Shown: in pieces, positions 20,768 to 37,290 of the stretch
Layout: every line of letters begins with the position of its first letter
Numbering within the stretch: the first letter of the stretch is position 1
NCBI RefSeq assembly: GCF_053078305.1
Contig: NZ_CP166879.1
Reading direction: 5' to 3' (one strand)
DNA length: 64,000 bases
The notes under the pieces: generated by a model
The model's input: only the letters and a program-made list of their open reading frames with translations
Told to the model about the DNA's origin: nothing
Database searches by the model: none
Translations under genes and position numbers: made by a program

Positions 20768-21418
20768 TTAATTTGATTTATTCGCATCCATCAACGCTTT
20801 TAACTCCTCCGGCGTAAACGGTGGTTTGCGTCGGTGCAACATCGCATGGCAATTAGGGCACACAGGAAGTAAATCATTAACTGGATCCAGCAGGTAATCC
20901 TCTTTAATGGCTGAAAGCGGCACCAGGTGATGCATATGGATAAAGCCCTCAGCGATATCGCCATAGATCTTCACCAGATCAACGCCGCATACGTTGCACT
21001 GGCATCCGTGATATTCGACTGCTTTCTCGCGAGCTTTTTTATCGCGTTCATAGCTGTTTACCGTCACCTTTATCGCCGCACCTTCAACGTAGGTCCCCTG
21101 CGACGGCAACTCATCCGGGAACAGAACATCGGCTATGGGAGCCGCAGCGGCTTTATCCTGATGAATATGAAATCCCTGATCTATAAGTAGCTTGACGCAT
21201 TTAGATTTTATTCCGCCGGTGAAATCCGCAGGGGTAAATTGCGTCCCCGTCATCAATGTCGCTGCGATGCCAGCAATCGCCTTCGAGGGGTAACGTCGGC
21301 CATGATATTCAATCTCATACAACCGTGCAGGCTGGAACTGATGAGTTTCTCCCGCATCCCATAAATGAATAGCTTTGATGATATACCGCCGAGGAAGATG
21401 ATCGGGGAGTTTATTCAT
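20768..21418 (-). CDS. HNH endonuclease-domain protein (C-terminal CxxC...HH...CPNCH zinc/HNH motif) with uncharacterized N-terminal domain; possible modification-dependent restriction enzyme
   Basis: C-terminus CQCNVCGVD...HMHHLVPL...CPNCHAMLH read directly; no family assignment verified. Confidence 0.6.
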   Translation of the reverse strand: MNKLPDHLPRRYIIKAIHLWDAGETHQFQPARLYEIEYHGRRYPSKAIAGIAATLMTGTQFTPADFTGGIKSKCVKLLIDQGFHIHQDKAAAAPIADVLFPDELPSQGTYVEGAAIKVTVNSYERDKKAREKAVEYHGCQCNVCGVDLVKIYGDIAEGFIHMHHLVPLSAIKEDYLLDPVNDLLPVCPNCHAMLHRRKPPFTPEELKALMDANKSN

Positions 21419-21497: not shown

Positions 21498-22427
21498 TTG
21501 AACAGCAGAAAATTTGCGAGCATGATCGCAATTATTTCACTGCCAGGGATATCAATGGCTTCCAGTAAATCGCTACAGCAGGCAATTGCCAATATAAAAA
21601 TCTGGCATAAGGGTGAACAGCGCGCGCCGCATAAGCCATTGTTATTGCTATACGTATTAGCGGGATACCTGCATGGACATCCGCGCCTTTTCGATTATGG
21701 CTCGGAAATCTACGAACCTCTGCACAGTTTACTGGAACGTTTTGGGCCACAGCGTTCACAGTACCGACCTGATATGCCGTTCTGGCGATTACAAGGCGAC
21801 GGATTCTGGCAATTACACAATGCCGAGCGTTGCTCAACAGCAGGGAGCAGCCGACAACCGCCAGTGAAGGAACTGAACGAATACCACGTTGCAGGCGGTT
21901 TCGATGAACAGCACTACGCCCTGGTAACCGGCAATAAAAAACTCATCAATACTCTGGCGCAACAGATACTCGAAGCGCACTTCACCGAGAGTATTCAGGA
22001 AGAAATTGCTGACGAGCTGGGTTTTGATCTCCAGCAAATCCGTAAACAGCGCGACCCGTTATTTCGCAAAAATGTATTACGCGCTTATAAATACCAGTGC
22101 GCGATATGTGGCTTTAATATGCGCCACGACGACACCACCGTCGCGCTGGAAGCGGCGCATATAAAATGGAAACAGCACGGCGGTCCTTGTGAAATTCCTA
22201 ATGGCCTGGCGCTTTGCGCAATTCACCATAAAGCCTTTGATAAAGGATCGATTGGCCTGGACGAAAATATGCGGGTACTGGTATCAGATGCGGTAAACGG
22301 CGGAGGGATCGTTGAGAGATTATTCTGGGATTTTGACGGGAAAACTATTGCGTTGCCGCAGGTGCGTAAAAATTACCCTTATGAGGGGTTTGTGGAGTGG
22401 CATCGGAAAGAGGTTTTTAGGGGGTGA
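21498..22427 (+). CDS. HNH endonuclease-domain protein with ~180-aa N-terminal putative DNA-recognition domain (predicted restriction endonuclease type)
   Basis: C-terminal CAICGF...HIKWKQHGG...NGLALCAIHHKAFD HNH-like motif; divergent from preceding HNH gene. Confidence 0.6.
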   Translation: MNSRKFASMIAIISLPGISMASSKSLQQAIANIKIWHKGEQRAPHKPLLLLYVLAGYLHGHPRLFDYGSEIYEPLHSLLERFGPQRSQYRPDMPFWRLQGDGFWQLHNAERCSTAGSSRQPPVKELNEYHVAGGFDEQHYALVTGNKKLINTLAQQILEAHFTESIQEEIADELGFDLQQIRKQRDPLFRKNVLRAYKYQCAICGFNMRHDDTTVALEAAHIKWKQHGGPCEIPNGLALCAIHHKAFDKGSIGLDENMRVLVSDAVNGGGIVERLFWDFDGKTIALPQVRKNYPYEGFVEWHRKEVFRG

Positions 22428-22468: not shown

Positions 22469-22651
22469 TCAGTGCAGGATCTTGCCGCTAGTTTACAACT
22501 CGCCTTCGATAGCGGCGCAAAACGAGTTCTGTTGCCGATATCCTCGGCTATGGATATTCCAACAGTTCCGGCAGAGTTGTTTACCAAGTTTCAGGTAAGT
22601 TTTTACTCAGAACCGGTTGATGCGGTTTATAAGGCGCTGGATGTGAATTAA
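22469..22651 (+). pseudogene. Start-less 3' gene fragment encoding a Lon-protease-like C-terminus (...GAKRVLLPISSAMDIPTVPAELF...VDAVYKALDVN*)
   Basis: 60-codon open frame without start, GC-rich island in AT-rich surroundings, resemblance to Lon C-terminal region (GIKxVLIP...) from memory. Confidence 0.35.
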
Positions 22652-23049
22652 CACATTCCTCAGCTTATTTATAAAAGGATTATTCCCATTTGATATAATA
22701 TCAGTGCCAATTTACTTTTTTCAATGGAATATATCTCGGCTAAATAACAATAAAACTTATCGCTAATGGATTAAATAAACAATTTTCTAATTCATTTCAC
22801 CACCTTTGATATAGAAATTGATGGTGTTGTCGCTGCCATTGCTTATGGTGATGATAAAATCCACGTTTCTGGATCGTTGCGTAGAAAATCATCACTACCT
22901 TGATATTTTGATGCGATATGATCATACCGTTCCGTAGTACCAATTTCAATTTCAGGCTAAACCCCAACATTAAAAAAATTAGAGTTATTCACTGATTATA
23001 TTATCAATAATATAATCAGTGAATAACATGGACTATATAATAAATTGCT

Positions 23050-25320
23050 CTAATCATTTCCCTTACGAATATATGGGCCAAAAGCCCAAGAATCATAATA
23101 AGGGTGATGGACTAGTTTTTCATTAAATCGAACACTATAAGTTAATTTTTTTATATTTTTACGTACAGCATTAATACTGGGCAAAGAGGAAAGATAATCT
23201 ATAAACTTATCGATAGTGATTTCCCCTTCGCAACACTCAAACCCATCAATGATATTTTTCGCCATTTTTCCATTTTCATTTGTTTGATATATCACTCCAG
23301 GTATTCGTTGAAAAAAACTAGATAATGCATATTTGTCCGCTACATATGTATCATCCACATGATATTTCCCACCGAGCATAGTTGTAGTAACAATAAGCTT
23401 ATACACACCTTTGGGTTGCCATGTTGATGGTAGTTCGAATTCTTTAATGATCACATCAAGATGATTAAGATAATGTTCAGAAATTCGATTTATTTGTTGA
23501 AAATAAGAACGCATAAATTTATTATTATGATCATGTATTAATGAGCTATCTCCAACGATGTTACACACTTGCTGATAGTACTTACCATAATATATTGGTT
23601 GACCATTTGATTTTAGTTCTGTAAAAATCAAACAATCATCCAGGAGAATCACGCAATCGCACTGATAATTAGCATGAGCATCAATTGGAGAAGCTTTAAT
23701 CCCCGCATCACGAACTTGTTTTATAAATTGTTGCTCATGAAATCGCCCTTTACTTGCTTGAGAAATTTTTTTGGAACCAAATAATGACATTAGAGAGCGA
23801 GTCACTGAGCTATTTGCTATTAATGCAGGCATTAAGCATAAACCGTCCATACAGGGAATAAATGGGCAATCATTAAGATCATGTGATTTTGAATTGAAGG
23901 TAAAATAATCTATCAGTTTTTTTGCTGCATCTGCTGCAATCCCCTTACGTTGAAAGAATGATAACCAACTCTCACGGCTTTTTATGATCAGCCAGCGATC
24001 CAACTGTAGGGGTATAGGTTTTGTCGATGAAAATCTTTTGCTCATTTCTTCTTTAGATAACTCGACTAAACATTGATAAGCGTGCACCCAATTAAATAAT
24101 GATATATTCCCATATTCTTCATGAAGGTCATCAGGAGATATATTTTCCAACTCGCTTAGATGAAATGAGCTAAAAACGCCATCAGAATTTAAGTAAGATG
24201 GCATATGATCCTTTACCCAACTATTTAGATGAAAATGTTTGTTACTAAATTCATGAACTTCGCTATATAGATGTGACGCTCTCATCATTAGTCTATTTCT
24301 TGCAATCTCATAATCTCGGTATAAACAAAAACTATCAACCTCAAGAGAGTAAATGTTATTATCCAATTTTGTAAATACTGCACTACTTAGTCTGAAAAAG
24401 TCTCTTACTCTGCTTAATGAGTCAAAAACATTCCACTCATTAAGGTACCCTCCCATTGAAAGCAAGGTTTGTTTATTCACACAAGAAGTTAGTTTCAATG
24501 GCTCATGAGTCCGTAAATAAGAAAATATTCGTCCGGTGTAATTGGCTACCTCATCAAATGCCCTATCGATAACTCGAAAATATTCGATATCAGGTTCAGC
24601 ATGAATATTAATATTTTCAGAAACGATTACTCTGCTTAATGAGTCAAAAACATTCCACTCATTAAGGTACCCTCCCATTGAAAGCAAGGTTTGTTTATTC
24701 ACACAAGAAGTTAGTTTCAATGGCTCATGAGTCCGTAAATAAGAAAATATTCGTCCGGTGTAATTGGCTACCTCATCAAATGCCCTATCGATAACTCGAA
24801 AATATTCGATATCAGGTTCAGCATGAATATTAATATTTTCAGAAACGATAAATAATGGAAAAATCCTCTTCATTTTTTTAGGATCATTGACCACAACCAA
24901 GGATGATAATGATGATAAAAACATCTCACAAAACATGATGAGATTAAGTATTAATGCATGTGATTTTTTTGTATTTTTACGCCAAATACCAGCACATTTT
25001 GTAGCCGCAAAGAAAGAATTATTTATATCATGCATAATTTTACATTGACTCTCGAACTCAGAAATTAGTTCAATGTTATCAGGAAATGAGTTTACTAGCT
25101 CATTAATACATTTTTTGAATGTATTGTTATACTCAACTTCAGTCTGAACTGAAAATCTATTATAATAGATGGAAGATATTCTCAGCACATCCAAGGCGAT
25201 ATCTATACTAATATCATCTCTTTTTATGTACTCACAAAAAAAAGAACAAAACTGTTTCGGGTCGTTAGCAAGATTACTAATTCTAGTGGTATCATAAACT
25301 TTTTCCATTTTTCCATACAT
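23050..25320 (-). CDS. Hypothetical 756-aa AT-rich orphan protein; C-terminal region has a PD-(D/E)xK-like motif (CDCVILLDD...FTELK)
   Basis: Long uninterrupted ORF, low GC, no recognisable family; nuclease motif is inference only. Confidence 0.6.
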   Translation of the reverse strand: MYGKMEKVYDTTRISNLANDPKQFCSFFCEYIKRDDISIDIALDVLRISSIYYNRFSVQTEVEYNNTFKKCINELVNSFPDNIELISEFESQCKIMHDINNSFFAATKCAGIWRKNTKKSHALILNLIMFCEMFLSSLSSLVVVNDPKKMKRIFPLFIVSENINIHAEPDIEYFRVIDRAFDEVANYTGRIFSYLRTHEPLKLTSCVNKQTLLSMGGYLNEWNVFDSLSRVIVSENINIHAEPDIEYFRVIDRAFDEVANYTGRIFSYLRTHEPLKLTSCVNKQTLLSMGGYLNEWNVFDSLSRVRDFFRLSSAVFTKLDNNIYSLEVDSFCLYRDYEIARNRLMMRASHLYSEVHEFSNKHFHLNSWVKDHMPSYLNSDGVFSSFHLSELENISPDDLHEEYGNISLFNWVHAYQCLVELSKEEMSKRFSSTKPIPLQLDRWLIIKSRESWLSFFQRKGIAADAAKKLIDYFTFNSKSHDLNDCPFIPCMDGLCLMPALIANSSVTRSLMSLFGSKKISQASKGRFHEQQFIKQVRDAGIKASPIDAHANYQCDCVILLDDCLIFTELKSNGQPIYYGKYYQQVCNIVGDSSLIHDHNNKFMRSYFQQINRISEHYLNHLDVIIKEFELPSTWQPKGVYKLIVTTTMLGGKYHVDDTYVADKYALSSFFQRIPGVIYQTNENGKMAKNIIDGFECCEGEITIDKFIDYLSSLPSINAVRKNIKKLTYSVRFNEKLVHHPYYDSWAFGPYIRKGND
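24406..24849. repeat. Perfect tandem duplication of a 222-bp unit (2 copies) inside the 756-aa ORF, in frame (74-aa duplication)
   Basis: Identical DNA blocks beginning tactctgcttaatgagtcaaaaacattcc at 24406 and 24628; protein repeat VIVSENINIHAEPDIEYFRV... x2. Confidence 0.9.
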
Positions 25321-25996: not shown

Positions 25997-26020
25997 GTGG
26001 TGCGAAGGCCGGACTCGAAC
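25997..26020. repeat. Direct repeat of leuX 3' end (attachment-site repeat) marking the distal boundary of the P4-like element
   Basis: tggtgcgaaggccggactcgaac matches leuX 3' end tggtgccgaaggccggactcgaac (38719-38742) at 23/24. Confidence 0.8.
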
Positions 26021-26285
26021 ATTTAATTAAACAACTGTATTTAAATAGTTTTTGTATTTAAAAATGAATTGATGCCCCTTTTTGTGCCCCCATTACCAAA
26101 ATAACAACCTAACCTTGTACTAAAAAAGAGATTTTTCAATGTAGGCACTCTGGTTCGGCTACGCTTACCGGAGACGAACCTGAACATAAGAAATCTGAGA
26201 TAACTTCATAGTAATCATCTTTAACACTTTTGACCAATAATATCTATCATAAAGGCAGAGAAATTAATCTCTGCCTTTATTAAGG

Positions 26286-27154
26286 TCACATAAAAAGATT
26301 ATTAATTAGAGTACACTGTTGACATCCATTAATATCTACAGCTTTTAAAAAATCTGTGTTACTAATCAAAACAGCATTACTAACACCTGAAAACTGCAGC
26401 TGTGCATACATACCTAAGATAGATTTTTTTTCGTAATACTGAGATCTTCCTGTATAACTTTCACCAGTATTAGAACTTATAAATCGCCTCGTTCTTTCTT
26501 GTATCAATAAATTATTTTTAAGGAAGCTCAAAATATCTTGCTGCAATTGTTTGTTTTTGTTATGAAAATAACATAACAATTGATCCTCTAAGGTACCAAG
26601 CTGAGTGTTAACGTCATGAAAAATATACCCCCCCATTCACTCCCATTAAACTCAATAATACTTCCATTGGAGAGTTGAGTAGTATCTTCTAAACCTATCT
26701 CATTTTTAATCTCTGTTATTCTGGCATCAATGCCAAGTTCATCAGCATCAAAAAAATATAAAAATCTATATGCAATTTCTATACTGAAGTCATCTGTACC
26801 AGAAAGTTCTTTATACATAGTGACTAACTCAGCCCTTTCACGACTTCTGCCATCACCATTTAGATTATGTATAAAAATTAAGTTCCCGTTATGATAGAAA
26901 CAAACAGAAGGTAGTTTTGGCCCGTTTGGCTGAAAGCCAAGTTTTTTATCTGGAATTCTTACTTGACTTAGTTCTTTTTCAAAGCGTTTATCAAACGGTG
27001 GAGGTAATTGACCAATTTTAAGATCTTGAAGTTGGAATCCATTAACTAAAAGAATTCTGCTAAGAAAAGCGACGTCATGCTGTCCTTCACAAAAGGCAAC
27101 TATGACTCTATTATAAGATACACTCACAATTTTAGCCTCTAATATCAAGATCAA
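26286..27154 (-). CDS. Toprim-like (OLD/DUF4435-like) putative nuclease partner, split into two overlapping frames (188 aa + 116 aa) by a frameshift at a G7 homopolymer (26628-26634)
   Basis: Candidate Toprim acidic residues (CEGQHD ... FFDADE); the two frames join if the run were G8; start ambiguous (TTG at 27154 or GTG at 27127 preceded by GAGG). Confidence 0.5.
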
Positions 27155-29369
27155 TATTTTTTATCAAATAGCCAAATCTTTCGCCATCAGCCCTTTTCAC
27201 TACTACTTTATCGTCAACTTTGCTTAACTGAAATCCAGTAATGCAATCATTATTATAATCATTATTTAAAAAAGCTCTGATACATTCACCCGAATGTGAC
27301 GTAAGGAACACTTGCACATTGAAACGTTCTGCAAGTTGTTGCGTAAATTTAGTAAACTCCAATAGTAAACTATAATGAATCGCAGTTTCAAATTCATCAA
27401 TAAAAAGTACACCGTTACGACATGCAGCAAAAGATAAAGCTATATAAAAGATGCGCTGAATACCCTCTCCATAAGAAGTAAGATCGAAACTTCTGTTAAA
27501 ATCATATGCTGATTCTACGATAAACCTTTTGAGCTCCATGTCTTCAGTAAATCTGACATCTTTTATCGTTGGCTCAATTTTATTCATGAATTCAATAACA
27601 AGGCCGATAGCGGATTGTATATTTAAATCATCTGATTCTGAGTCAGTTACAGACGTTAAATTTGCACCTATACTTTTGTTATAATCAGTGAGCAAATCGT
27701 CTATATCGTAGAAATAAGGGCTTTTAAATGACGATGAACACAAATGCGAAACTTGATCAGCGTTCCTTCTCATACGTTCATGGATAAAAGTATGGACTGT
27801 GTTATTTCTAAATTCTCCATCAATGCTAGACTTTAAGCTATAAGATGCTATATAGTCATCTTGTTTATCAATTGAAGAATCATCATATTTAATCATTTCA
27901 ACAGTAACATTACTATCATCAAATACTCCTGACAAGATTATTTTATCTTGGAAAAGAGCATTTAGCAATGTTGGACTCAAAGTACTGATTTTATTTTTTT
28001 GCCTAATAAGATTAAAATGCGATGAAATATCATTACGCTGCGTCAATAAGTAAATTGCTTCAAGCAATGAAGTTTTTCCAGCATTATTAAAGCCAGCAAT
28101 GATATTAATCTTATTGAAATTATCCAATGAGAAGTTTTTAAAGAATTTATATTTTTTGATATAAATGGATTTAAAATGTTTTTTTACTCCATACTCAAAA
28201 TTAGTTGTATAGTTTCCTCCTTCGATATTTATAGCCATCTGCTTTGGCATTATTTGTGTTAGTTTTTCTTTTGCATCATCTAATAAGCGCAAATCCTCTT
28301 GGTTTATGAGGCTACTATATAGATTTAAATCCTTTAAGGCGTCTTCAAGCTTGCTTAAAGCATTTTTATAGTTTTGCTGATTTACTGAACCGCTCGCAGC
28401 TAATCCTCTTGCAAGGCTACGTTCATCCTCCATTACCTTCAAGGCTTTTTCATTATTGATGAACAAAGCAAGATCTCGTATCTCAAGAGATTTAGTAATT
28501 ATAGGTTCTAGCTCAACGTATTCACCATTACTTTCCTCTTCAATATCATCTTCTAGCTCATTTTTCTCAAGGTATTCATCTGTTTTAGAGATCCACGAAA
28601 AAAGCCTATCAAGATTCACTAAATTTCTAGCATAATAACCGTTATCACTCCAGTCTAACCAAGATTTAATTACAGGCTTTTTGATTATTTCTTCAAAAAT
28701 ACCAAACATACTTGGTTCGAATTGCTCACCATACTCACTTGTTTTATATAAGGAAATTAGATTATAAACTCTAAGCATAGAGCGAAGACGCGTTTTAGAA
28801 ATACCGAGCGAACTAACTAGCTCATCTTCTTTTTCAACATACTCATCTCGAGTTTTGTCTTCATATGGTTTTAAAAAATCATAAAGCAGTTTGGACTGAT
28901 TATATGTTGACCACTTTTTATTACCACTTATATGCTTTAATCCCATTACAATCAGATGTTTTTCAACATCTTGATTATTATGGATTTCGAAAGGAACACT
29001 TCTAAAAATAGATGGATCTAGTTTTCCAATATCAAACCCCTTTTCATATGCTTCTTGCAATGCTTTCAGCGCCGTTACACGACGATTTCCCTCAAGGACT
29101 AAATAATTGTTATCTCCTAAATCCTTTACTTGAATAACATCAACATCTAAGTATCCATTAGATTTAAAACTTGCTATTAGATCTTTGATATTCTCTTGTC
29201 TATTTCCTTCTATAAAAAAGCGAGTCCTACGCTGAATTGTTGGATCTAGCATGTCCTTTTCTGAGACTGGCTTGTGCTGGTCATTGTCAACAAAACGGTA
29301 GTTATTAGGATCTAGAAATAAATTTTTTAAATTTTTGCTAATGCGCGGGCGAATTTGCTCGACATTCAT
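27132..29369 (-). CDS. ParB/Srx-like N-terminal domain fused to ABC-type (AAA_15/21, OLD/AriA-like) ATPase; putative anti-phage defence ATPase
   Basis: N-terminal LVLEGNRRVTALKAL (ParB GxRR-like); C-terminal Walker A GFNNAGKTS, signature-like SYGEG, Walker B VLFIDEFE, H-loop TSHS; GAGGTGA RBS before ATG. Confidence 0.65.
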   Translation of the reverse strand: MNVEQIRPRISKNLKNLFLDPNNYRFVDNDQHKPVSEKDMLDPTIQRRTRFFIEGNRQENIKDLIASFKSNGYLDVDVIQVKDLGDNNYLVLEGNRRVTALKALQEAYEKGFDIGKLDPSIFRSVPFEIHNNQDVEKHLIVMGLKHISGNKKWSTYNQSKLLYDFLKPYEDKTRDEYVEKEDELVSSLGISKTRLRSMLRVYNLISLYKTSEYGEQFEPSMFGIFEEIIKKPVIKSWLDWSDNGYYARNLVNLDRLFSWISKTDEYLEKNELEDDIEEESNGEYVELEPIITKSLEIRDLALFINNEKALKVMEDERSLARGLAASGSVNQQNYKNALSKLEDALKDLNLYSSLINQEDLRLLDDAKEKLTQIMPKQMAINIEGGNYTTNFEYGVKKHFKSIYIKKYKFFKNFSLDNFNKINIIAGFNNAGKTSLLEAIYLLTQRNDISSHFNLIRQKNKISTLSPTLLNALFQDKIILSGVFDDSNVTVEMIKYDDSSIDKQDDYIASYSLKSSIDGEFRNNTVHTFIHERMRRNADQVSHLCSSSFKSPYFYDIDDLLTDYNKSIGANLTSVTDSESDDLNIQSAIGLVIEFMNKIEPTIKDVRFTEDMELKRFIVESAYDFNRSFDLTSYGEGIQRIFYIALSFAACRNGVLFIDEFETAIHYSLLLEFTKFTQQLAERFNVQVFLTSHSGECIRAFLNNDYNNDCITGFQLSKVDDKVVVKRADGERFGYLIKNIDLDIRG

Positions 29370-29634
29370 ATGTCACCTCAATGGTGTAGGAACTATACAA
29401 TGCAACTTTACTTGATACCTCAGCAATCAACAACTTCATGTTTTTGAAACTAAGCGCGCGCAGCCCCGCACGCCTGCCCGCTTCGCTTAACAGACTGGTT
29501 TTCATGCACCTCATAAATCGTCTCAGAAGCCACCAAACAAGGGTTTTCTCGTCAAAAATGGTGCATAAGACTCATGCGTTTTCATGCGCCATAGACATGC
29601 ACTCATTCGCTCTCATGCCAGCCAGGAAAAGGGG

Positions 29635-29662
29635 ATAAAAAATCCCGGTACTGGACCGGGAT
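29635..29662 (-). terminator. Rho-independent terminator after the delta/Ogr gene
   Basis: Stem atcccggt-loop-accgggat followed by T-run on the minus strand. Confidence 0.55.
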
Positions 29663-29682
29663 TACGTGGGCGTTCTTTCTAA

Positions 29683-29964
29683 TCAGACAGGAATCTGCTG
29701 ACGGCTTGACAGTTTTGACGCGGAGCCATAGCGATTAAGTGTTTGCTGTTGTTTTTCCGGGGATTGTGCTTTGTCTGATAGCTGTTCATTGCGTCGGGGT
29801 TTCATGATTATCTTATCCACACTCTCCAGTGCCGTAAATGTGCAGGAACATTCCAGATTCTGGCACTGATACCACGAGCGTTTAACTGACGGAGCTTCAT
29901 AGGCTGCTGTTCTGGCGTGTGCAACTGTACCGCATTCCGGACATTTAAGTGCCATTAATATCAC
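29683..29964 (-). CDS. Ogr/Delta-family zinc-finger late-gene activator
   Basis: MALKCPECGTVAHARTAAYEA...WYQCQNLECSCTF matches the Ogr C4 zinc-finger pattern. Confidence 0.8.
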   Translation of the reverse strand: MILMALKCPECGTVAHARTAAYEAPSVKRSWYQCQNLECSCTFTALESVDKIIMKPRRNEQLSDKAQSPEKQQQTLNRYGSASKLSSRQQIPV

Positions 29965-30512
29965 TCCTGTATATCGTTAATGTCATTCAGGCGTTGCTGA
30001 AAACGCAGATGTTGTGCCGGGGTGTAAGAGCCCTGGCAATCACGAATCATCCCGGGGTCAGGCATCAAACCGGATTCATCCAGGATCTCACGATAATCCC
30101 CGGCAATTTCAGGCGGTGTTATTGTCAGCTGGCGAACCAGAGCACTGCGTAATATACGGGACGCAACGTCAACCCCTCCGCGCCCCTTCAGGAACGGAGC
30201 CAGTGCAGATGTCAGGGCTGCCCCATTCGCCTGCATAAAATTGCTGAGAGCGGCTTCTGTGCAGGCTTCCATCAGTAAATGCTGCGAGTAAATGCATTCG
30301 CGCGCAGCACAGTTAATTTGCCATTTCAGCACATCCAGACGTTCCCGCAGTAATTCGAGCTGTCGGGCATAATCTGCTGGTTTTTCTGTGGCAGCGAGGA
30401 GAGATGCTATCTGTTGTTCAACGGCTTTTCGGCTCTCACTATGTCCGGCCCACAGAATACGGGCATTCCGAAAACTGGTAAGTGCCTGGTCAGGCGTGCC
30501 TCGGGCCGTCAT
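29961..30512 (-). CDS. P4-like late-operon protein (tentatively Psu-like)
   Basis: 183-aa helical protein in late operon between Sid-like and delta genes; assignment by size and position only. Confidence 0.4.
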   Translation of the reverse strand: MTARGTPDQALTSFRNARILWAGHSESRKAVEQQIASLLAATEKPADYARQLELLRERLDVLKWQINCAARECIYSQHLLMEACTEAALSNFMQANGAALTSALAPFLKGRGGVDVASRILRSALVRQLTITPPEIAGDYREILDESGLMPDPGMIRDCQGSYTPAQHLRFQQRLNDINDIQE

Positions 30513-31252
30513 ACTGCTTTCTCCTTCTCAGCAAGTTCCTGACGAACCTTAATTTTATGCATAGCTGCCGGAGAGAGTTGATTACTGAAATCCAGACGCG
30601 CCGCATAATCCGGGGCAATTCCCGCCAGTTTAAACACCGGGTCCTGTTCAGGCATCGCATCGTTAGCCAGAGCCGGTCTGGTGATATGTTTATGAATAAA
30701 GTCTTTCAGCACTGTGTCCGGGTCATTAACTGAATTCACCACACCCACAACGGCACTGGCTTCCCGGCCCATTGTGGATTTAAGCAGGCTCAGCGTCTGA
30801 ATAAGCGCTTTTCCATGCGATTGCATAAAATCTTCCCAGATTTGTTTTGCGCGAATATCCACAAGAATGTTATGCGCGTGGATATACTTTCCGGCTAATT
30901 CCGCAGCTTTCTGCGGCAAAAGTGCATTTTCGCTTTCCTGAGCCGCCAGCAGCTCATCAAAATCCTCAAGCGTTTCTCGTCCCAGCGCAATTTCCGTGCG
31001 CAGTTTTTTCATTTCCTTTGAAACCACGCCCTGACTTTCACGAAACAGCGTGCGCCACTCCTCATTCAGTGTGTTCGTCGTGGCTTCCATCTCAGCGCGA
31101 CGCTGGCGGATTGTCGCAATATTATCCGCTGCCGCTTTCTGCTGACGACGTGCTTCAAGCCATGCGTTTCTGGCTGTGTTCATGGTTTCCAGTGCCCGCT
31201 GCGTTACAGCCGGAAAAGTGGAAAGGTTGTTATTCACTGCGGTGTTGTTCAT
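30509..31252 (-). CDS. P4-like late-operon protein (tentatively Sid-like capsid size-determination scaffold)
   Basis: 247-aa helical/coiled-coil-like protein, first gene of late operon; assignment by size and position only. Confidence 0.4.
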   Translation of the reverse strand: MNNTAVNNNLSTFPAVTQRALETMNTARNAWLEARRQQKAAADNIATIRQRRAEMEATTNTLNEEWRTLFRESQGVVSKEMKKLRTEIALGRETLEDFDELLAAQESENALLPQKAAELAGKYIHAHNILVDIRAKQIWEDFMQSHGKALIQTLSLLKSTMGREASAVVGVVNSVNDPDTVLKDFIHKHITRPALANDAMPEQDPVFKLAGIAPDYAARLDFSNQLSPAAMHKIKVRQELAEKEKAV

Positions 31253-31430
31253 GGCTTCTCCTGTCGGGTTGGTTCGTTACGTCAATTGTGTCGTGGCTGA
31301 CACAAGCACACTATCGGTGCTCAGTGTGTGGTGGCTGGCACAACGGGCGCTTGCGGTTATTCAGACGTGGCTATGAAAGCCAGCCAGATAAAAATGCCCT
31401 CAGTTTCAGTCTGCTTTATGTCCCTGATGC

Positions 31431-31618
31431 GGTGGAACAGGTGAAACATGTGTTACAGCTTTGTTTTATAAAGCACTTATATACACTGCACCGGTGGAAC
31501 ATCGCGGGTAACAAGGTGGAACAGCGGATTGGCTGGCGTTACATCTGTTCCACCTCACTATTTCAGAAGGTGGAACAGGTTCAGCCCTGTAAAATACGGT
31601 TGTTCCACCTGTTTCACC
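31431..31618. repeat. Iteron array (GGTGGAACA / TGTTCCACC, at least 7 copies in both orientations); probable P4-type ori/crr alpha-binding sites
   Basis: Repeats read directly downstream of the alpha gene; resemble the P4 TGTTCACC iteron. Confidence 0.6.
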
Positions 31619-31652
31619 TGTTACCCTTAATAAATAAGACTCACGCAAAGCC

Positions 31653-34325
31653 TTAACCCGGCACCTCGCTGTTGAAGACATAGAGCCTGCGGGGATTCAT
31701 CTCTGGCGGGCGAATGGTTGTCTGGAGTTTGCCATCAGTGGAGGGCAGCAGGTATCCACGATCTGCGCACAGACGAGCCACCTTGCGCGGGTCAAATCCC
31801 CTGCAGATTTCTTTCCAGCCGGACGGCATGACATAGAACGTAGTGACAGCTTCCGTGCCCTGCGCGGTACTGCCTTTCTCCACCCTGCGCCAGCCCACCA
31901 TATTGCCGGGGCGGTTGCGCTCGTCATACCAGTCTGCAAAGCGGCTGTACTGATTCGCGGTAAAGAAACTGCGAACCTGCTCCAGTGCGGCAATATCTTC
32001 CTGATTGGCGGTGTGCCCGCGATCTTTCAGCCATGCGTTCAGGCAGACGCGGGTTGCCCGCAGTGCTTCACCCTCAGGCCAGCCGGTGATACCCAGACGG
32101 GTTGCCAGTTCACCCGCCATCGCCACCAGTGCAAAGCGATTCACAGCCCGGCCCACCTGGTTGCCTGCATCTTTCGGAGTCAGGGCGGCAGCATATTCCT
32201 TCATCAGCGATTTTGCCTGTGCCGTTAGTCCGTTAAGATCAGCGGTCAGTGCTTTCAGCCACTCCCGGAACGGCGAACCGTAGTAGCAGGACGTGGCCCA
32301 TTCAAGATGCTCTGCCAGAGCCTTGCCGCTGTCGAAGCCGTGCAGCTCCTCAAAAACGCCAAACTTCCCGGAATCGCTGGGGATCTGGATCATCCTGACT
32401 TCCATCCCGGCAAAAGTACGCTCACCGGCCTTTGCCGCATGTTCGGTCAGAGATAACTCGCCAGTTGAAAAGAACAACAGGCGCCACTGCTTACGGGTAC
32501 GCAGCTCACCGTCCGTACCGGCACGACCCTTGCCCTGACCGTTTGCCAGCATGTAGGCGATACTGCCTGCCTCGCGTCCGTCAACTTCCCGGATCTCATC
32601 AAGCATCATGGCGGCATCGTTGCGGCGGCTGGCGCATCCCTCCAGCGCGTTGCCGGTGGCCCGCCATGTCTGCCAGTAGTCAGGCCCGCCGCAGACGGAG
32701 GTTGCCGCTTTCATGGTGGTGGTCTTACCGTCTGTCGATTCCCCTTTGAGGTGGTAGCCGCCGCCGTCCATACCAACCAGCCGTAACAGTGGTGCAGCAA
32801 AGGCCAGGCTGACAGCAAATGCCACGCGGGAGTTGCCGGTACAGTAGCGGGATACGTTCTCCCGCCATTCCTCTGTTGTACCCGACACGCGGAAATCACG
32901 CCCCTGCACGGAAGTGGTCTGGAGAATGACACCCTCTGCACCTTCACCGCTGACCTCATCCTGCAGGACGTAAACCTGACCATGCCAGCCAGTACGGCTG
33001 ACGCAGGTCACGCGGCGTTCCGGTTTACACAGTGAGATATATTCCATCAGGCGTGCGCGTGCCTCACCGGTGGTGCTGATATAAGACAGCCCGTTAACCA
33101 GCAGTACCCGGCGCAGTTCCTCACCACTGCCGCTCAGCATTTCCATCGGCATCGCCCAGCGGCGACGCTCACCCCATGTATCTTCCCATTCCAGCAGTCG
33201 TCCGAAGTTACCGCCATCGGCATCGCAGGTGATTGCCGTAACGCGCAGCGGGCTGCATATTTTGACGTTCTGGATCTCCGTCTCACCGTTGCGCTGTACC
33301 TGCTTTTCATACCAGAGATATTCCTGGGTAAGACGGAACCCGTGCGGCAGTTGCGTGCGGCCTTCCCCGCACAGTACCAGACCGTTGCGAAAGACTTCAC
33401 GGGCACGGGTAATACCGTGCTCCCGATGAAAGTCATTCCAGTCAGCCTTAATCTCTCCTGGTGGCAGCGTCATCCAGCCGCCAACAGCTTTTGCCGCCCG
33501 TTCAGCAAAGGCTCTGCCGGGATTCTCCCCCCCGTCCTGAAAATCGTTATCACCGGCGATGATAATTTTTACCTCAGGCCAGCGTGCCCGCAGCGACTGC
33601 GCCACATTGGGCAGGTTGCCCGCAGATATGGCAGCCACTACGCATCCGGCAGTGAGCTGGCTTACCGTCAGCGCCGTAGCGTAACCTTCGGTAATCACCA
33701 CCTGTACCGGTGGTTCAGACGGTAACGGGCTGAGCGACACAAACGCGCCTTTCATCGTGCTGCCGGGCAGTATGCTTTTTTCACCCGTCGGGGCGATAAG
33801 CTGTGCACCGGTCACGGCTCCGGTGTTGGTCGTGAGTGGTAACAGCAGAGAACCGGCAGGAAAATCCTTACCGCTGATATGCTGCACGCTTCCGGTCAGA
33901 GAGGCTGGGTATCCGGCGAACCCTTTTCCTGTCAGATAGGCGCTTTCTCCCGTGTGGCTCTCTTTCATCAGCGCCGCCACGGTAAGACCCATGTCGCGTT
34001 TAGGGGCTTTTTGTCTGGCAGGCTTAACAGGCAGTTCCTGCACATCCGGCACATTAAGCATCTGCGCCACCTCCTGCGCAGCCTTTCTGACGCTGTAACC
34101 GGTTACGAGCTTAACCAGATCCAGACCGTCACCATTGCCACACTGGCTGCAGATCCACGTCCCGCGCCCGTCAAGGTCATCAAGGCGAAAACGATCCTTG
34201 CCCCCACATTTCGGGCAGGGACCGTGCCTGCCGTTTTCAGGTACATCAATACGCAGCATCTGCAGAATAACGGGCCATTTCCCCCGCGCGGCGGCTGAAA
34301 TCTGCGTAACCGTCTGTATTGTCAT
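31653..34325 (-). CDS. P4 alpha-like primase/helicase replication protein
   Basis: 890 aa; N-terminal Cys-rich zinc-binding region (CPKCGG...CSQCGN), ATP-binding GESTDGKTT motif. Confidence 0.8.
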   Translation of the reverse strand: MTIQTVTQISAAARGKWPVILQMLRIDVPENGRHGPCPKCGGKDRFRLDDLDGRGTWICSQCGNGDGLDLVKLVTGYSVRKAAQEVAQMLNVPDVQELPVKPARQKAPKRDMGLTVAALMKESHTGESAYLTGKGFAGYPASLTGSVQHISGKDFPAGSLLLPLTTNTGAVTGAQLIAPTGEKSILPGSTMKGAFVSLSPLPSEPPVQVVITEGYATALTVSQLTAGCVVAAISAGNLPNVAQSLRARWPEVKIIIAGDNDFQDGGENPGRAFAERAAKAVGGWMTLPPGEIKADWNDFHREHGITRAREVFRNGLVLCGEGRTQLPHGFRLTQEYLWYEKQVQRNGETEIQNVKICSPLRVTAITCDADGGNFGRLLEWEDTWGERRRWAMPMEMLSGSGEELRRVLLVNGLSYISTTGEARARLMEYISLCKPERRVTCVSRTGWHGQVYVLQDEVSGEGAEGVILQTTSVQGRDFRVSGTTEEWRENVSRYCTGNSRVAFAVSLAFAAPLLRLVGMDGGGYHLKGESTDGKTTTMKAATSVCGGPDYWQTWRATGNALEGCASRRNDAAMMLDEIREVDGREAGSIAYMLANGQGKGRAGTDGELRTRKQWRLLFFSTGELSLTEHAAKAGERTFAGMEVRMIQIPSDSGKFGVFEELHGFDSGKALAEHLEWATSCYYGSPFREWLKALTADLNGLTAQAKSLMKEYAAALTPKDAGNQVGRAVNRFALVAMAGELATRLGITGWPEGEALRATRVCLNAWLKDRGHTANQEDIAALEQVRSFFTANQYSRFADWYDERNRPGNMVGWRRVEKGSTAQGTEAVTTFYVMPSGWKEICRGFDPRKVARLCADRGYLLPSTDGKLQTTIRPPEMNPRRLYVFNSEVPG

Positions 34326-34705
34326 ACTTCCCCCTGATACAACGTCACACCGGTACTGCAGAAGTCATCAAAGGCCGCCGGAAGCGTGCGGTACATCTCC
34401 GCCATCACTTCACAGCCGCGCGCGGTCAGTACCGGCGGCGCGGTCAGCAGTGACGGCTCCAGCATGTCAGTCAGCAGTGCCAGCGCGGCAGCGGCGCCCT
34501 GTGCTTCGCCGTACTCGTTAATCAGTGCGCACTCGATATGCAGCGCAATGGCCATTTCAATACGCTCCACCGTCAGGCTGTGCGGACCATACTGATCACT
34601 GCCAGTTTCGTTCAGCATTTTCTGCCGCCATGCTGAAGCAATAGCCCGTCGGTAAAGCGCGGTGGTCATTTCTGCCGGGAAAATGGAAACCTGCGGCTGG
34701 TTCAT
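34322..34705 (-). CDS. Hypothetical P4-like early protein
   Basis: 127-aa ORF overlapping alpha start by 4 nt (translational coupling). Confidence 0.5.
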   Translation of the reverse strand: MNQPQVSIFPAEMTTALYRRAIASAWRQKMLNETGSDQYGPHSLTVERIEMAIALHIECALINEYGEAQGAAAALALLTDMLEPSLLTAPPVLTARGCEVMAEMYRTLPAAFDDFCSTGVTLYQGEV

Positions 34706-34986
34706 CTGGCACCTCCTTCAATCAGTGCGCAGCTGTGTGCAATATCCGTCAAATCTGCCCGCAGGTACTCCATCAGCGCGGCGACACCAGGCGCACAGCC
34801 TGCGTCCAGTGCTCCGGCCTGAGACGGGTATTCAGAAAAGAGAAGCTGGAGCATGTCGCAGGCATTTCTTGCGCGGATCAGCTTTCCGAAACCGTCCTCT
34901 GACAACCCATAGGCAAAAGCACCGGTATTGTGTTTTTCAGGCAAAGTGTGGCCCTGAGCACCGTTGTGCCCGTTTGAAATATTCAT
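34702..34986 (-). CDS. Hypothetical P4-like early protein
   Basis: 94-aa ORF overlapping the next gene by 4 nt. Confidence 0.45.
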   Translation of the reverse strand: MNISNGHNGAQGHTLPEKHNTGAFAYGLSEDGFGKLIRARNACDMLQLLFSEYPSQAGALDAGCAPGVAALMEYLRADLTDIAHSCALIEGGAR

Positions 34987-35017
34987 CGTGAATTACTCCG
35001 TTTTCAGCGGTATTTTG

Positions 35018-35407
35018 TCAGAGAAACTTTGAATAGTGACCGTCGTCAGGCTCAGCAGAACGCCGTATGGTACGCTCCCGCCAGCGGATAAATAGCACAG
35101 ACGGATGCAGTGTCAGCGGGCCGGAACCACTACTGCCTGCAGGAGCTGGTGCAGGCTTAAAGAGCGGTACATCAAACAGGCGCGTATACCGCTGTTCAAA
35201 CCATGCCAGAGGGCAGGAAGAAAGCTGGTTGTCGCTGTCATGACGTATCAGCACTTCACAGCTGAATTCAGGATTAACCAGCGCCACAGAGGGCGAGGCT
35301 TCTATTAATCGGATAATCGTGACCGTCCAGCCACGTTCATGCCGCCAGCGTTCGCCGGGGTGCGGATAATTACGCATGTTCACCTCCGCAGGGAATGCGC
35401 CCGGCAA
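35018..35407 (-). CDS. Hypothetical P4-like early protein (true start possibly the internal Met at ~35377)
   Basis: 129-aa ORF in the same early-operon orientation. Confidence 0.4.
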   Translation of the reverse strand: MPGAFPAEVNMRNYPHPGERWRHERGWTVTIIRLIEASPSVALVNPEFSCEVLIRHDSDNQLSSCPLAWFEQRYTRLFDVPLFKPAPAPAGSSGSGPLTLHPSVLFIRWRERTIRRSAEPDDGHYSKFL

Positions 35408-35621
35408 AGCTCAGTACACAGTCCGGGGCAAGTCTGCGCCGCGCTGACCGCTCATTATCTGCGGTGAGCCTTAACATCACAGGACGGGCATTGCGTTGAC
35501 TGCGGTTGATCGCCGCAAATAACCAGGTACACTTCTGTTTAGCCATCTTCGTTACCTCATATAGCGGATTGGTCAGAAGCCCGGTTAGTGTTGCTGCACT
35601 GTCGGGCTTCGCACTCACAAG

Positions 35622-35713
35622 GTGAATCGCACCTTTAATTTTAAAGCTACCCTTAAGTGAATCGCACTTCAAGCTTTTTATTATCATTTTTTTTGCGTAT
35701 ACTGAATCGCACC
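35622..35713. promoter_or_regulatory. Three direct repeats of GTGAATCGCAC (35622, 35657, 35702) in the divergent control region; putative operator
   Basis: Repeats read directly upstream of the 61-aa + strand ORF and the early operon. Confidence 0.45.
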
Positions 35714-35733
35714 TAACGCGAGGAGATCCAGTA

Positions 35734-35919
35734 ATGGCAACGAGTTCAACTAACAACAAGTCGCAGCAACTTAATGCTCGTTTCCCACATGATGTAGTTG
35801 CAGAATTAGAAAGCAACCTTGAAGATGGAGAAACGAAAGCGCAATTCATTGTTACTGCTGTAAAAGGCGAGATTAAACGCCGACAGCGCAGGAAAAATAA
35901 GCCAGAGCAAGGAAGTTGA
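35734..35919 (+). CDS. Small basic protein (61 aa), possible DNA-binding regulator
   Basis: ORF with GAGGAG RBS; basic C-terminus (IKRRQRRKNK); no family verified. Confidence 0.4.
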   Translation: MATSSTNNKSQQLNARFPHDVVAELESNLEDGETKAQFIVTAVKGEIKRRQRRKNKPEQGS

Positions 35920-36030
35920 ATAGAGAAGCCAACAGACGTTCTCTCTGGTCCCATGTTAATTTCAGTAAGCGACAATATTTTTAAGCCCACAAATTCATTA
36001 TGTCGGGCTTTTTTATTAGTGATTTTCATA

Positions 36031-36246
36031 TCACTCACCACGAGAGGCATATATTTGCTCTTGAATCCAGTGATCAACTTCGCTTTCAACGAATGAAATT
36101 GCACGAGTTCCTATTTTCACCGGACGGGGAAATGTATTGTTTGCAAGCTGTTTGTAAAGCCATGCCTTGCTACGCTGAACGCGTCTTAATACCTCTTTTG
36201 CTGAGATAAGAGTCTGATTATCTGAAAAGCTGTTTGCATATTCCAT
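36031..36246 (-). CDS. alpA: AlpA-family phage transcriptional regulator / excisionase-like protein
   Basis: ...ISAKEVLRRVQRSKAWLYKQLANNTFPRPVKIGTRAISFVESEVDHWI AlpA-like HTH. Confidence 0.75.
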   Translation of the reverse strand: MEYANSFSDNQTLISAKEVLRRVQRSKAWLYKQLANNTFPRPVKIGTRAISFVESEVDHWIQEQIYASRGE

Positions 36247-36622
36247 CTTGTTACTCCGTGTTCTACTTAAGTTCACGGTGACTTTAAACACTGGGAAAAA
36301 GTGATTCTAGTGATAATGGAATCTATTAAGACAAACATTGATTCTATTGAAAAACAATAATCTCCACTGAAAAAAAGAAGTAATATTCATATGAAAGAAC
36401 ACGGAAAGAAGGAAATGCACAAAACAATAAAATTAATAAAATTCATATAGATAGGATGGAAAATCAAAAAATCATACGTCAAAAGGTATTATTACATTTT
36501 AACGATTCATATTACCTAGGAATTAGCACAGTATTACACCGTATTACATCGTATTACCCCCTATAGCCCCTTAGAGCCTCTTGTGGCCCTTCTATTGAGA
36601 GATAGCCAGAAAATTAATAAAT

Positions 36623-37261: not shown

Positions 37262-37290
37262 TTAAATCTCTCCGCAGCCCCCAATGGTAA

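What the first reader, a model, noticed from the sequence alone, without database searches (positions are those of the whole stretch)
23050..25320. 756-aa AT-rich orphan protein with a PD-(D/E)xK-like motif
A large, very AT-rich ORF without obvious family sits between the HNH genes and the satellite boundary. Its C-terminal region contains ...NYQCDCVILLDDCLIFTELK... (DNA 23611-23670), which has the shape of a restriction-endonuclease-fold core (hydrophobic strand with D, then ExK). Its location in a defence-rich accessory region makes a stand-alone nuclease or abortive-infection role plausible.
Basis: inference. Interest (0 to 1): 0.6.

Follow-up and report, generated by a model that had tools for sequence, protein, structure and literature searches.

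The report
Stand-alone NERD-type nuclease gene, internally duplicated
The gene encodes a member of a widespread but uncharacterised family of about 650-residue proteins: a large helical domain joined to a restriction-enzyme-like (NERD / PD-(D/E)xK) nuclease, carried as a single gene on mobile and defence islands. It is probably an anti-phage or anti-plasmid nuclease, and this strain's copy carries an unusual exact 74-residue internal duplication.

Summary
The ORF is real and the motif is real, but the protein is not an orphan.

- **True gene:** the likely start is the second ATG (MEKVY, 25308). The canonical E. coli protein is 678 aa. The window's copy is 752 aa because of an exact, in-frame 222-bp tandem duplication (24405-24848), seen in no listed match among the E. 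coli complete genomes and found only in one NCBI protein record and one IMG record.
- **Family:** a profile search finds 360 clusters of mostly 600-690-aa full-length relatives across phyla.
- **Conserved residues:** in 111 sequences only 15-55% identical, G447, D477, E490, K492 and P408 are invariant. E451, Q531, D403, D406 and D584 are at least 90% conserved.
- **Context:** always a single gene with no conserved partner, at the edges of islands, ICEs, prophages and plasmids, often beside defence genes. Here it sits between a BrxL relic plus two HNH enzymes and a P4-like satellite at leuX.
- **Selection:** dN/dS is 0.10.

The nuclease assignment is firm. The defence role is inferred.

The parts
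23050..25308 (-). Coding sequence of the NERD-type nuclease from the likely true start (ATG 25306-25308, MEKVY...) to the stop codon (23050-23052). It encodes 752 aa in this strain and 678 aa in other E. coli. The ORF as listed extends 4 codons further, to 25320.
   Evidence: RefSeq WP_000416998.1, 678 aa; homologues align from MEKVYD / MK-YD; 752-aa form = WP_447309353.1; dN/dS 0.10.
23887..25308 (-). N-terminal all-helical domain (residues 1 to about 400 of the 678-aa form; 1 to about 474 here). It has no recognisable family and is the proposed sensor or regulatory module.
24405..24848 (.). Exact tandem duplication of 222 bp (copies 24405-24626 and 24627-24848, plus 1 nt of junction homology at 24849). 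It is in frame and repeats residues 154-227 of the 678-aa protein.
   Evidence: 100% identical copies. Every listed E. coli genome match spans 222 bp less. Also present in IMG/VR locus L021, which is 100% identical to the window over 13.5 kb. In the model of the duplicated form the first copy has pLDDT 28-58.
23863..23880 (-). DLNDCP motif (D403, D406, P408 in 678-aa numbering). It is 96-100% conserved in the family, lies just upstream of the nuclease core, and its role is unknown.
23377..23769 (-). PD-(D/E)xK (NERD-like) nuclease core, residues about 440-570 of the 678-aa form. Catalytic-type codons: E451 at 23734-23736, D477 at 23656-23658, E490 at 23617-23619, K492 at 23611-23613. Q531/R534 lie on the following helix.
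23053..23376 (-). C-terminal beta-rich domain (residues about 571-678), with D584 97% conserved. It is possibly a nucleic-acid-binding module, but this is unassigned.
   Evidence: dN/dS 0.155.
22984..23027 (-). Perfect 20-bp-stem hairpin followed by a T-run, 23 nt after the stop codon. It is a likely intrinsic terminator, and being palindromic could act in both directions.
22472..22651 (+). Relic of the last 58 codons of brxL (the BREX Lon-like protease), convergent with the nuclease gene. It marks a deleted BREX system.
   Evidence: PADLOC BrxL E=1.7e-19. NCBIfam TIGR02653 E=3.8e-24, profile positions 617-675 of 675. RefSeq annotates it as a partial pseudogene.
21498..22427 (+). Phosphorothioated-DNA-binding HNH restriction endonuclease. 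This is a neighbour, not a partner.
   Evidence: NCBIfam NF045808 E=5e-132. PADLOC HNH. RefSeq annotation.
20768..21418 (-). HNH endonuclease. This is a neighbour, and it is truncated in strain fS58a.
26003..26020 (.). 18-nt repeat of the tRNA-Leu (leuX) 3' end, the distal attachment-site copy of the P4-like satellite (26003-38741). The nuclease gene lies about 680 bp outside it.

Best explanation
The gene encodes a single-polypeptide, metal-dependent nuclease of the PD-(D/E)xK superfamily, of the NERD / Card1-like type.

**Layout:** an approximately 400-residue all-helical N-terminal domain, a conserved DLxDxP linker, the nuclease core (E451, D477, E490-x-K492, Q531) and a beta-rich C-terminal domain.

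**Shown here:**
- the fold and the family-wide invariance of the catalytic-type residues;
- purifying selection over all three domains;
- occurrence as a stand-alone gene with no conserved partner;
- horizontal mobility: a tRNA island in E. coli, an ICE edge in Salmonella, a prophage end and plasmids in Bacillus-type genomes, and single-gene insertions elsewhere.

**Inferred:**
- It is a one-gene defence effector against phages or other invading elements.
- The helical N-domain keeps the nuclease in check or supplies target recognition.
- An infection cue, either a phage protein or an unusual nucleic acid, releases cleavage of DNA or RNA. This would resemble the single-protein nucleases Upx and ZwsA.

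**In this window:**
- The gene sits in a decayed defence islet at leuX: HNH, PT-dependent HNH, then a brxL relic.
- Next to it is a P4-like satellite carrying PDC-M38.
- This copy has a strain-specific in-frame duplication of 74 residues inside the N-domain. The nuclease is predicted to stay folded, but regulation may be disturbed.
For: **Nuclease assignment**
- Invariant G447, D477, E490, K492, and at least 90% conserved E451, Q531 in 111 sequences that are 15-55% identical.
- The motif is present in essentially all 110 full-length representatives.
- AlphaFold2 model with pLDDT 92.4 and pTM 0.92 shows helix-strand-strand-strand-helix-strand topology around these residues.
- PDB profile hit to the Can2 nuclease motifs, E=0.03.
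- Pfam NERD in 11 of 111 relatives at E<=1e-3, plus weak Card1_endonuc, Mrr_cat and Hjc hits.
- Orthologues are named NERD domain-containing.

**Functional gene**
- dN/dS 0.10 between E. coli and Salmonella.
- At least 99% identical in about 340 of 5,426 E. coli genomes.
- A terminator hairpin follows the stop codon.

**Stand-alone and mobile**
-.

**Defence association**
- BrxL relic and two HNH restriction-type genes beside it.
- The same slot holds the candidate defence nuclease PDC-S11 in strain fS58a.
- A relative lies next to a type I R-M system plus Cap4, another next to an AbiJ-like gene, and another after a prophage lysis cassette beside pPIWI-RE.

**Precedents**
- Upx (PMC13099982).
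- ZwsA (bioRxiv 10.64898/2026.04.06.716636), with an E-D-ExK tetrad of the same D-to-E spacing.
Against: - No experimental evidence exists for this family.
- It is not recognised by PADLOC, apart from a 50-residue hit to PDC-M29B at E=0.0015.
- The Pfam NERD model does not match the E. coli protein itself.
- The context evidence is anecdotal: about a dozen loci, several of them between plain housekeeping genes. It was not tested statistically.
- The substrate (DNA or RNA) and the trigger are unknown.
- The N-domain has no recognisable homologue, so its 'sensor' role is conjecture.
- For this particular copy, the 74-residue duplication may inactivate or deregulate the protein.
Confidence: 0.6

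Rival explanations
1. The protein is a nuclease that serves the mobile elements carrying it, not the host's immunity. It might act as an exclusion or competition factor against rival plasmids, ICEs or satellites, as an addiction-type toxin, or as a processing enzyme for element DNA.
For: - It is found at the edge of an ICE in Salmonella, on Bacillus, Priestia and Exiguobacterium plasmids, and next to an integrase in Pectobacterium.
- It lies next to T6SS effector-type cargo (Hcp-Ntox44) in Pantoea.
- Its low GC (33%) indicates foreign origin.
Against: - No conserved antitoxin or immunity partner is seen at any locus.
- In E. coli it persists at at least 99% identity where the surrounding island has decayed and no element functions remain.
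- In Izhakiella, Xenorhabdus and Pantoea it sits alone between chromosomal genes.
Confidence: 0.15
2. The family is an RNA-targeting defence like ZwsA. The NERD core would cleave structured RNA of RNA phages or transcripts rather than DNA, with the C-terminal beta-rich domain acting as the RNA-binding module. This is a more specific version of the best explanation.
For: - ZwsA is a stand-alone multidomain NERD protein of 716 aa. Its catalytic residues E535, D567, E580 and K582 have the same 13-residue D-to-E spacing as D477 and E490 here.
- ZwsA also has a helical N-terminal part and a C-terminal nucleic-acid-binding domain.
- The Card1 / Can2 relatives hit here are known to cut RNA as well as DNA (the activity statement is from general knowledge).
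Against: - No ZwsA sequence was available, so homology beyond the shared motif could not be tested.
- None of the fetched relatives has ZwsA's residue numbering.
- Pfam finds no VHS, DUF647 or S4 domain in this protein.
- Most structural neighbours are DNA nucleases.
Confidence: 0.12
3. The copy in this window is a damaged allele. The 74-residue duplication in the helical domain, together with the frameshifted PDC-M38B next door, reflects decay of defence genes in this strain, so whatever the family does, this copy no longer does it properly.
For: - The duplication is absent from every listed match among the 359 E. coli complete genomes that hit the region.
- The duplicated protein is on record from one NCBI contig and one IMG record.
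- The first repeat copy is modelled at pLDDT 28-58.
- The neighbouring PDC-M38B has a 1-nt deletion in a G8 run.
- The islet already contains a brxL relic.
Against: - The duplication is exactly in frame.
- The copies are 100% identical, so it is recent and untested by selection.
- The rest of the protein, including the nuclease, is still modelled with pLDDT above 90.
- An insertion of a helical hairpin at a surface of the N-domain may be tolerated.
Confidence: 0.35
4. The protein is a housekeeping-type DNA repair or recombination nuclease, for example one that resolves or processes branched DNA, that happens to be accessory.
For: Structural neighbours include Holliday-junction resolvases (Hjc), NucS and UPF0102/YraN.
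Against: - Its distribution is patchy: about 6% of E. coli genomes.
- It has low GC, lies on islands and mobile elements, and has no association with repair genes at any locus examined.
Confidence: 0.05

Closest known systems
NERD domain proteins (Pfam PF08378; PD-(D/E)xK clan)
   Same: - The motif order matches: G-x-x-x-E helix, then D on one strand, then E-x-K on the next.
- 11 of 111 relatives match the Pfam model at E<=1e-3 and 26 at E<=0.1.
- UniProt names orthologues 'NERD domain-containing protein'.
   Different: - The E. coli protein itself does not match the Pfam NERD model even at E<=10.
- The 400-aa helical N-domain, the DLxDxP motif and the beta-rich C-domain are not part of NERD and have no family assignment.
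Card1 / Can2 nuclease domain (DUF1887, Pfam PF09002; PDB 7bdv, 8bao, 6wxw)
   Same: - This is the best sequence-profile match in the PDB (Can2 7bdv, E=0.03), aligned over G-FE...D...ExK.
- Weak Pfam hits in 7 relatives.
   Different: There is no CARF sensor domain. The N-terminal region here is all-helical and unrelated, so there is no indication of cyclic-oligoadenylate control and no CRISPR association.
Upx, single-protein dual PD-(D/E)xK anti-phage nuclease (PDB 9wuf; PMC13099982)
   Same: - It is a single-gene system with a C-terminal canonical PD-(D/E)xK core buttressed by other domains.
- Upx is proposed to be activated by a phage protein.
   Different: - Upx is 1,212 aa with a second, atypical nuclease domain.
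- Identity is only 12%.
- No second nuclease-like domain is seen here, since the N-domain is all-helical.
ZwsA (Zowangsin), stand-alone NERD RNA endonuclease against RNA phages in P. aeruginosa (bioRxiv 10.64898/2026.04.06.716636)
   Same: - It is a single multidomain protein of similar size (716 aa).
- Its NERD catalytic tetrad E-D-E-x-K has the same D-to-E spacing.
- It is located in genomic islands.
   Different: - The motif lies about 90 residues further from the N-terminus, and the tail after the catalytic K is shorter.
- ZwsA's reported VHS, DUF647 and S4 domains are not detected here.
PDC-S11 and PDC-M29B (PADLOC candidate defence proteins)
   Same: - PDC-S11, a Cas4/NucS-like PD-(D/E)xK protein, occupies exactly the same chromosomal slot in strain fS58a.
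- PDC-M29B gives a 50-residue hit over the catalytic motif.
   Different: - There is no sequence similarity to PDC-S11 (E=1.3).
- The PDC-M29B hit is marginal (E=0.0015) and covers only the core motif.

Membership tests
PD-(D/E)xK nuclease superfamily | Restriction-endonuclease-like alpha-beta-beta-beta-alpha-beta core fold | tested here: met
   [not shown]
PD-(D/E)xK nuclease superfamily | Acidic residue at the start of the second core strand and (D/E)-x-K on the third, conserved in the family | tested here: met
   D477, E490 and K492 are invariant in 111 sequences that are 15-55% identical. E451 is 97% and Q531 is 92% conserved.
PD-(D/E)xK nuclease superfamily | Divalent-metal-dependent phosphodiester cleavage | not testable with these tools
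   This needs purified protein and D477A, E490A and K492A mutants.
NERD domain (Pfam PF08378) | Significant match to the family profile | tested here: inconclusive
   The E. coli protein has no hit even at E<=10. Of its relatives, 11 of 111 match at E<=1e-3 and 26 at E<=0.1, with a best E of 1e-5. Orthologues are auto-named NERD in UniProt.
NERD domain (Pfam PF08378) | Motif order: G-x-x-x-E helix, then D, then E-x-K | tested here: met
   KGRFHE(451)...CD(477)CVILLDDCLIFTE(490)LK(492).
Card1 / Can2 CRISPR ancillary nucleases | N-terminal CARF domain that binds cyclic oligoadenylate | tested here: not met
   No CARF or other Pfam domain is found. The N-terminal 400 residues are all-helical rather than a Rossmann-like fold. 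No CRISPR genes are nearby.
Card1 / Can2 CRISPR ancillary nucleases | DUF1887-type nuclease domain | tested here: inconclusive
   [not shown]
ZwsA (Zowangsin) RNA-phage defence | Sequence homology to ZwsA along the protein | not testable with these tools
   No sequence or accession appears in the preprint or its supplement. No fetched relative has D567/E580/K582.
ZwsA (Zowangsin) RNA-phage defence | VHS, DUF647 and S4 RNA-binding domains flanking the NERD domain | tested here: not met
   No such Pfam matches occur in the protein or in 111 relatives.
Upx dual-nuclease defence | Two PD-(D/E)xK-type nuclease domains in one polypeptide of about 1,200 aa | tested here: not met
   [not shown]
Known or candidate defence systems in PADLOC-DB v2 | Full-length match to a system protein model | tested here: not met
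   The only hit is a 50-residue match to PDC-M29B at E=0.0015.
Restriction-modification enzymes (type II / IV) | Cognate methyltransferase partner, or a recognisable modified-DNA reader domain | tested here: not met
   No methyltransferase is conserved next to the gene at any locus. No reader domain is detected. Mrr_cat hits are weak and occur in only 4 relatives.

The most novel reading that the evidence does not exclude
This approximately 650-residue family could be a new, widespread, single-gene immune system. A previously undescribed 400-residue helical domain, together with the invariant DLxDxP element, would sense infection and gate a NERD nuclease. The E. coli copy would be a surviving cassette of the leuX defence hotspot. 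In that reading, the strain-specific duplication within the sensor domain would be a natural variant with altered triggering.
Probability: 0.4. Interest if true: 0.55.

Novelty: new member of a known kind. Interest (0 to 1): 0.35.

Why it matters
If the defence role is confirmed, it would add a compact one-gene nuclease system to the catalogue. The system is present in about 6% of E. coli genomes, in Salmonella, and in many Firmicutes and other phyla, and current defence-finding tools miss it. It would also put a function on a large helical domain with no known relatives.

The finding also shows how the leuX site works as a hotspot. It holds interchangeable nuclease cargo (this gene or PDC-S11), a BREX relic, two HNH enzymes and a satellite with its own defence cargo.

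On present evidence it is a well-supported annotation improvement, from "hypothetical protein" to "NERD-type PD-(D/E)xK nuclease", rather than a surprise.

Tried and rejected
- **Direct family searches** gave nothing for the protein itself: Pfam, NCBIfam, PHROGs and PDB sequence.
No systematic one-genome-per-species survey or statistical neighbourhood test was therefore done.
- **The search for homologous proteins with A2** only re-found the close relatives, which wasted one search.
- **Second E. coli allele:** rejected. The '80-90%' matches are 100-bp fragments.
- **Salmonella orthologue beside the leuX BREX (StySA) locus:** rejected. It sits at an ICE edge, and the NERD mention in the StySA paper refers to PglW.
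- **Phage-borne copies:** none in the phage collection and none for P0100 in IMG/VR. The four IMG/VR hits for the E. coli gene match the window only up to about 26030, at the attachment-site repeat, and differ beyond it. The gene therefore lies outside whatever element is integrated at leuX in those strains.
- **Relationship to the PDC-S11 nuclease in the same slot:** none.
- **Literature:** nothing on PDC-M29 or on accession WP_000416998.
- **ZwsA sequence:** could not be obtained.
- **RNA elements:** no Rfam family in or around the gene. Promoter-like sites are no more frequent than in shuffles.
Full report
**1. The observation**

An uninterrupted ORF runs from 25320 to 23050 on the minus strand (756 codons). 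It lies in a 33%-GC stretch of a roughly 50%-GC genome. The peptide NYQCDCVILLDDCLIFTELK is encoded at 23611-23670.

Three corrections are needed.

- **Start codon.** Homologues and RefSeq begin at the second ATG (MEKVYD..., 25308).
- **Internal duplication.** The ORF contains an exact 222-bp tandem duplication (24405-24626 and 24627-24848, with 1 nt of junction homology).
  - It repeats residues 154-227 in frame.
  - Every listed match among the 359 E. coli complete genomes that hit the region spans 222 bp less, and their protein is 678 aa (WP_000416998.1).
  - The duplicated 752-aa protein is on record once in NCBI (WP_447309353.1, one 5.94-Mb contig).
  - It also occurs in one IMG-derived record (L021) that is 100% identical to the window over 13.5 kb.
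  - So the duplication is reproduced in a second record, but it is confined to one strain or lineage.
- **Chance level.** A bare D-x(8-16)-E-x-K pattern occurs in 72% of shuffles of this protein, so the motif by itself proves nothing.

**2. Not an orphan**

Direct searches of Pfam, NCBIfam, PHROGs and PDB sequences find nothing. PADLOC gives only a 50-residue hit to PDC-M29B (E=0.0015), over the motif.

Word-indexed homology search finds only Enterobacterales:

| Taxon | Identity |
|---|---|
| E. coli | at least 98% |
| Salmonella | 75% |
| One unnamed metagenomic sequence | 56% |
| Izhakiella, Xenorhabdus, Pectobacterium, Pantoea | 41-52% |

A profile of these, run against 1.84 billion representatives, finds 360 clusters at E<=1e-3 and 181 at E<=1e-10. 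Most are 600-690 aa and match along the full length.

AFDB50 gives 365 structural matches. Full-length TM-scores of 0.7-0.97 link it to proteins from Salmonella, Bacillus, Priestia, Paenibacillus, Listeria, Streptococcus, Enterococcus, Legionella, Agrobacterium, Paracidovorax and a planctomycete. Many are auto-named 'NERD domain-containing protein'.

**3. The nuclease**

- In 111 full-length members that are 15-55% identical to the E. coli protein, the invariant positions are P408, G447, D477, E490 and K492. E451, Q531, D403, D406 and D584 are at least 90% conserved.
- The D-x12-13-E-x-K element is present in essentially every member.
- The AlphaFold2 model is confident (pLDDT 92.4, pTM 0.92).
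  - Residues 1 to about 400 are helical.
  - A linker follows, carrying DLNDCP and a hairpin.
  - The core then has helix 446-460 (E451), strands 464-468, 476-482 (D477) and 485-492 (E490, K492), helices 500-511 and 528-540 (Q531, R534), and strand 560-567.
  - A beta-rich C-terminal domain ends the protein.
- Foldseek against the PDB is not significant, although its list is led by McrC, VC1899, Hjc and Can2.
- The family profile aligns to the Can2 nuclease motifs (E=0.03).
- Individual members hit Pfam NERD (11 at E<=1e-3), Card1_endonuc, Mrr_cat, Hjc and MTES_1575.

The fold and the catalytic-type residues are therefore established computationally. Activity is not.

**4. A working gene**

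- dN/dS between the E. coli and Salmonella orthologues is 0.10. By region it is 0.084 for the N-domain, 0.097 for the linker plus nuclease, and 0.155 for the C-domain.
- E. coli copies are at least 99% identical and occur in about 340 of 5,426 complete genomes.
- A perfect 20-bp hairpin with a T-run follows the stop codon.
- No Rfam family lies in or around the gene.

**5. Context**

In E. coli ETEC6335 the gene lies directly beside tRNA-Leu (leuX). The order is nanS pseudogene, HNH endonuclease, phosphorothioated-DNA-binding HNH endonuclease, a small pseudogene, this gene, then leuX.

The small pseudogene (window 22472-22651) is the last 58 codons of brxL. A BREX system was therefore once adjacent and has since been deleted.

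In the window, a 12.7-kb P4-like satellite is inserted at leuX. It carries an integrase, a TOPRIM/DUF927 primase and Psu, and is bounded by an 18-nt repeat at 26003-26020 and 38724-38741. It also carries PDC-M38A/B. The nuclease gene lies about 680 bp outside the satellite.

In strain fS58a the same slot holds a different single-gene candidate defence nuclease, PDC-S11. It is unrelated in sequence to this protein.

Contexts elsewhere:

| Organism or member | Context |
|---|---|
| Salmonella | Edge of an ICE |
| Pectobacterium | Beside an integrase and Vsr |
| Pantoea | Beside Hcp-Ntox44 |
| Izhakiella, Xenorhabdus | Between housekeeping genes |
| Bacillus mycoides plasmid | Between IS5 copies |
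| Priestia plasmid | On the plasmid |
| Bacillus-type genome (P0100) | After a prophage lysis cassette, beside pPIWI-RE |
| Metagenomic relative (P0093) | Next to a type I R-M system and Cap4 |
| Metagenomic relative (P0103) | Next to an AbiJ-like gene |

No neighbour recurs, so the gene works alone. No copy was found in the phage collection.

**6. Mechanism**

Shown:
- a stand-alone, horizontally mobile protein under purifying selection;
- an intact PD-(D/E)xK (NERD-like) active-site signature;
- two further conserved domains.

Inferred:
- a one-gene defence effector in which the helical N-domain restrains or directs the nuclease until an infection cue appears.

Two recent single-protein precedents exist. 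Upx is activated by a phage protein (PMC13099982). ZwsA is a NERD RNA endonuclease active against RNA phages, with the same D-to-E spacing (bioRxiv 10.64898/2026.04.06.716636). The substrate here is unknown. Membership of the ZwsA family could not be tested because no sequence is available, and ZwsA's VHS, DUF647 and S4 domains are not detected here.

**7. The duplication**

- In a model of the 752-aa allele, the nuclease and most of the N-domain stay confident (pLDDT above 90).
- The first repeat copy (about residues 160-235) drops to pLDDT 28-58, and the second copy takes the native position.
- The extra helical hairpin may be tolerated as a loop-out, or it may disturb regulation. This cannot be decided computationally.
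- The neighbouring PDC-M38B carries a 1-nt deletion in a G8 run (C7 at 26628-26634), and this is also present in L021.
- Both lesions could therefore reflect decay of defence genes in this lineage. They could also be errors shared between the two records, if those records are not independent.

**8. Verdict**

- 'Orphan' is wrong.
- The size is inflated by a strain-specific duplication.
- The defence role is plausible but rests on context from about a dozen loci.
- The best label is a new, uncharacterised member of the NERD / PD-(D/E)xK single-protein nucleases.

Interest is moderate.

Noticed in passing
window 26628-26634 (within 26286-27154, minus strand): PDC-M38B, the cargo of the P4-like satellite, is split into two ORFs by a 1-nt deletion in a homopolymer: C7 here against G8/C8 in strain fS58a, where the gene is an intact 280 aa. 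The same lesion is present in IMG/VR locus L021. It could be a real inactivation or a homopolymer sequencing error.
   Followed up: partly
window 22472-22651 (+): This is a relic of the last 58 codons of brxL (the BREX Lon-like protease), convergent with the nuclease gene. It implies that a BREX system at leuX was deleted, leaving only this stub.
   Followed up: yes
L017 2366-3364 (E. coli fS58a, NZ_CM176576.1): In this strain the slot between the PT-dependent HNH enzyme and the satellite holds a 332-aa PDC-S11 / NucS-Cas4-like 'PDDEXK family nuclease' instead of the NERD gene. The upstream HNH gene is truncated there. The slot therefore carries interchangeable nuclease cargo.
   Followed up: partly
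window 26003-38741: A P4-like satellite (integrase, TOPRIM/DUF927 primase, two Psu-like genes, Ogr/Delta, Icd-like) is integrated at tRNA-Leu(CAA) and bounded by an 18-nt direct repeat. It carries PDC-M38A, a ParB-N plus AAA ATPase protein of 745 aa, at 27132-29369.
   Followed up: partly
window 23887-23986: A 100-bp piece inside the nuclease gene matches at 85% identity to unannotated DNA on several E. coli plasmids and on chromosomes that lack the gene (19 records). Its origin was not examined.
   Followed up: no
window 23863-23880 (DLNDCP; residues 403-408 of the 678-aa form): A D-L-x-D-x-P motif about 40 residues upstream of the nuclease core is as conserved as the catalytic residues (D403 99%, D406 96%, P408 100%). 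It has no counterpart in descriptions of NERD or PD-(D/E)xK motifs that I know of.
   Followed up: partly
L012 7480-8010 (Priestia filamentosa plasmid pBEH5): In this plasmid a 176-aa hypothetical gene overlaps the start of the family member by 13 nt. It may be a lineage-specific partner and is not seen at the other loci.
   Followed up: no
L024 1-4645 (Salmonella ICE region): About 5 kb from the Salmonella orthologue lies a separate 267-aa Pfam-NERD protein, overlapping the end of a 1,399-aa gene with helicase (AAA_11/AAA_12, UvrD-like) and faint kinase hits. This is a second, different NERD-containing module on the same element.
   Followed up: no
window 22984-23027: A perfect 20-bp-stem palindromic hairpin with flanking T/A runs lies between the convergent brxL relic and the nuclease gene. 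It is a likely bidirectional terminator.
   Followed up: no
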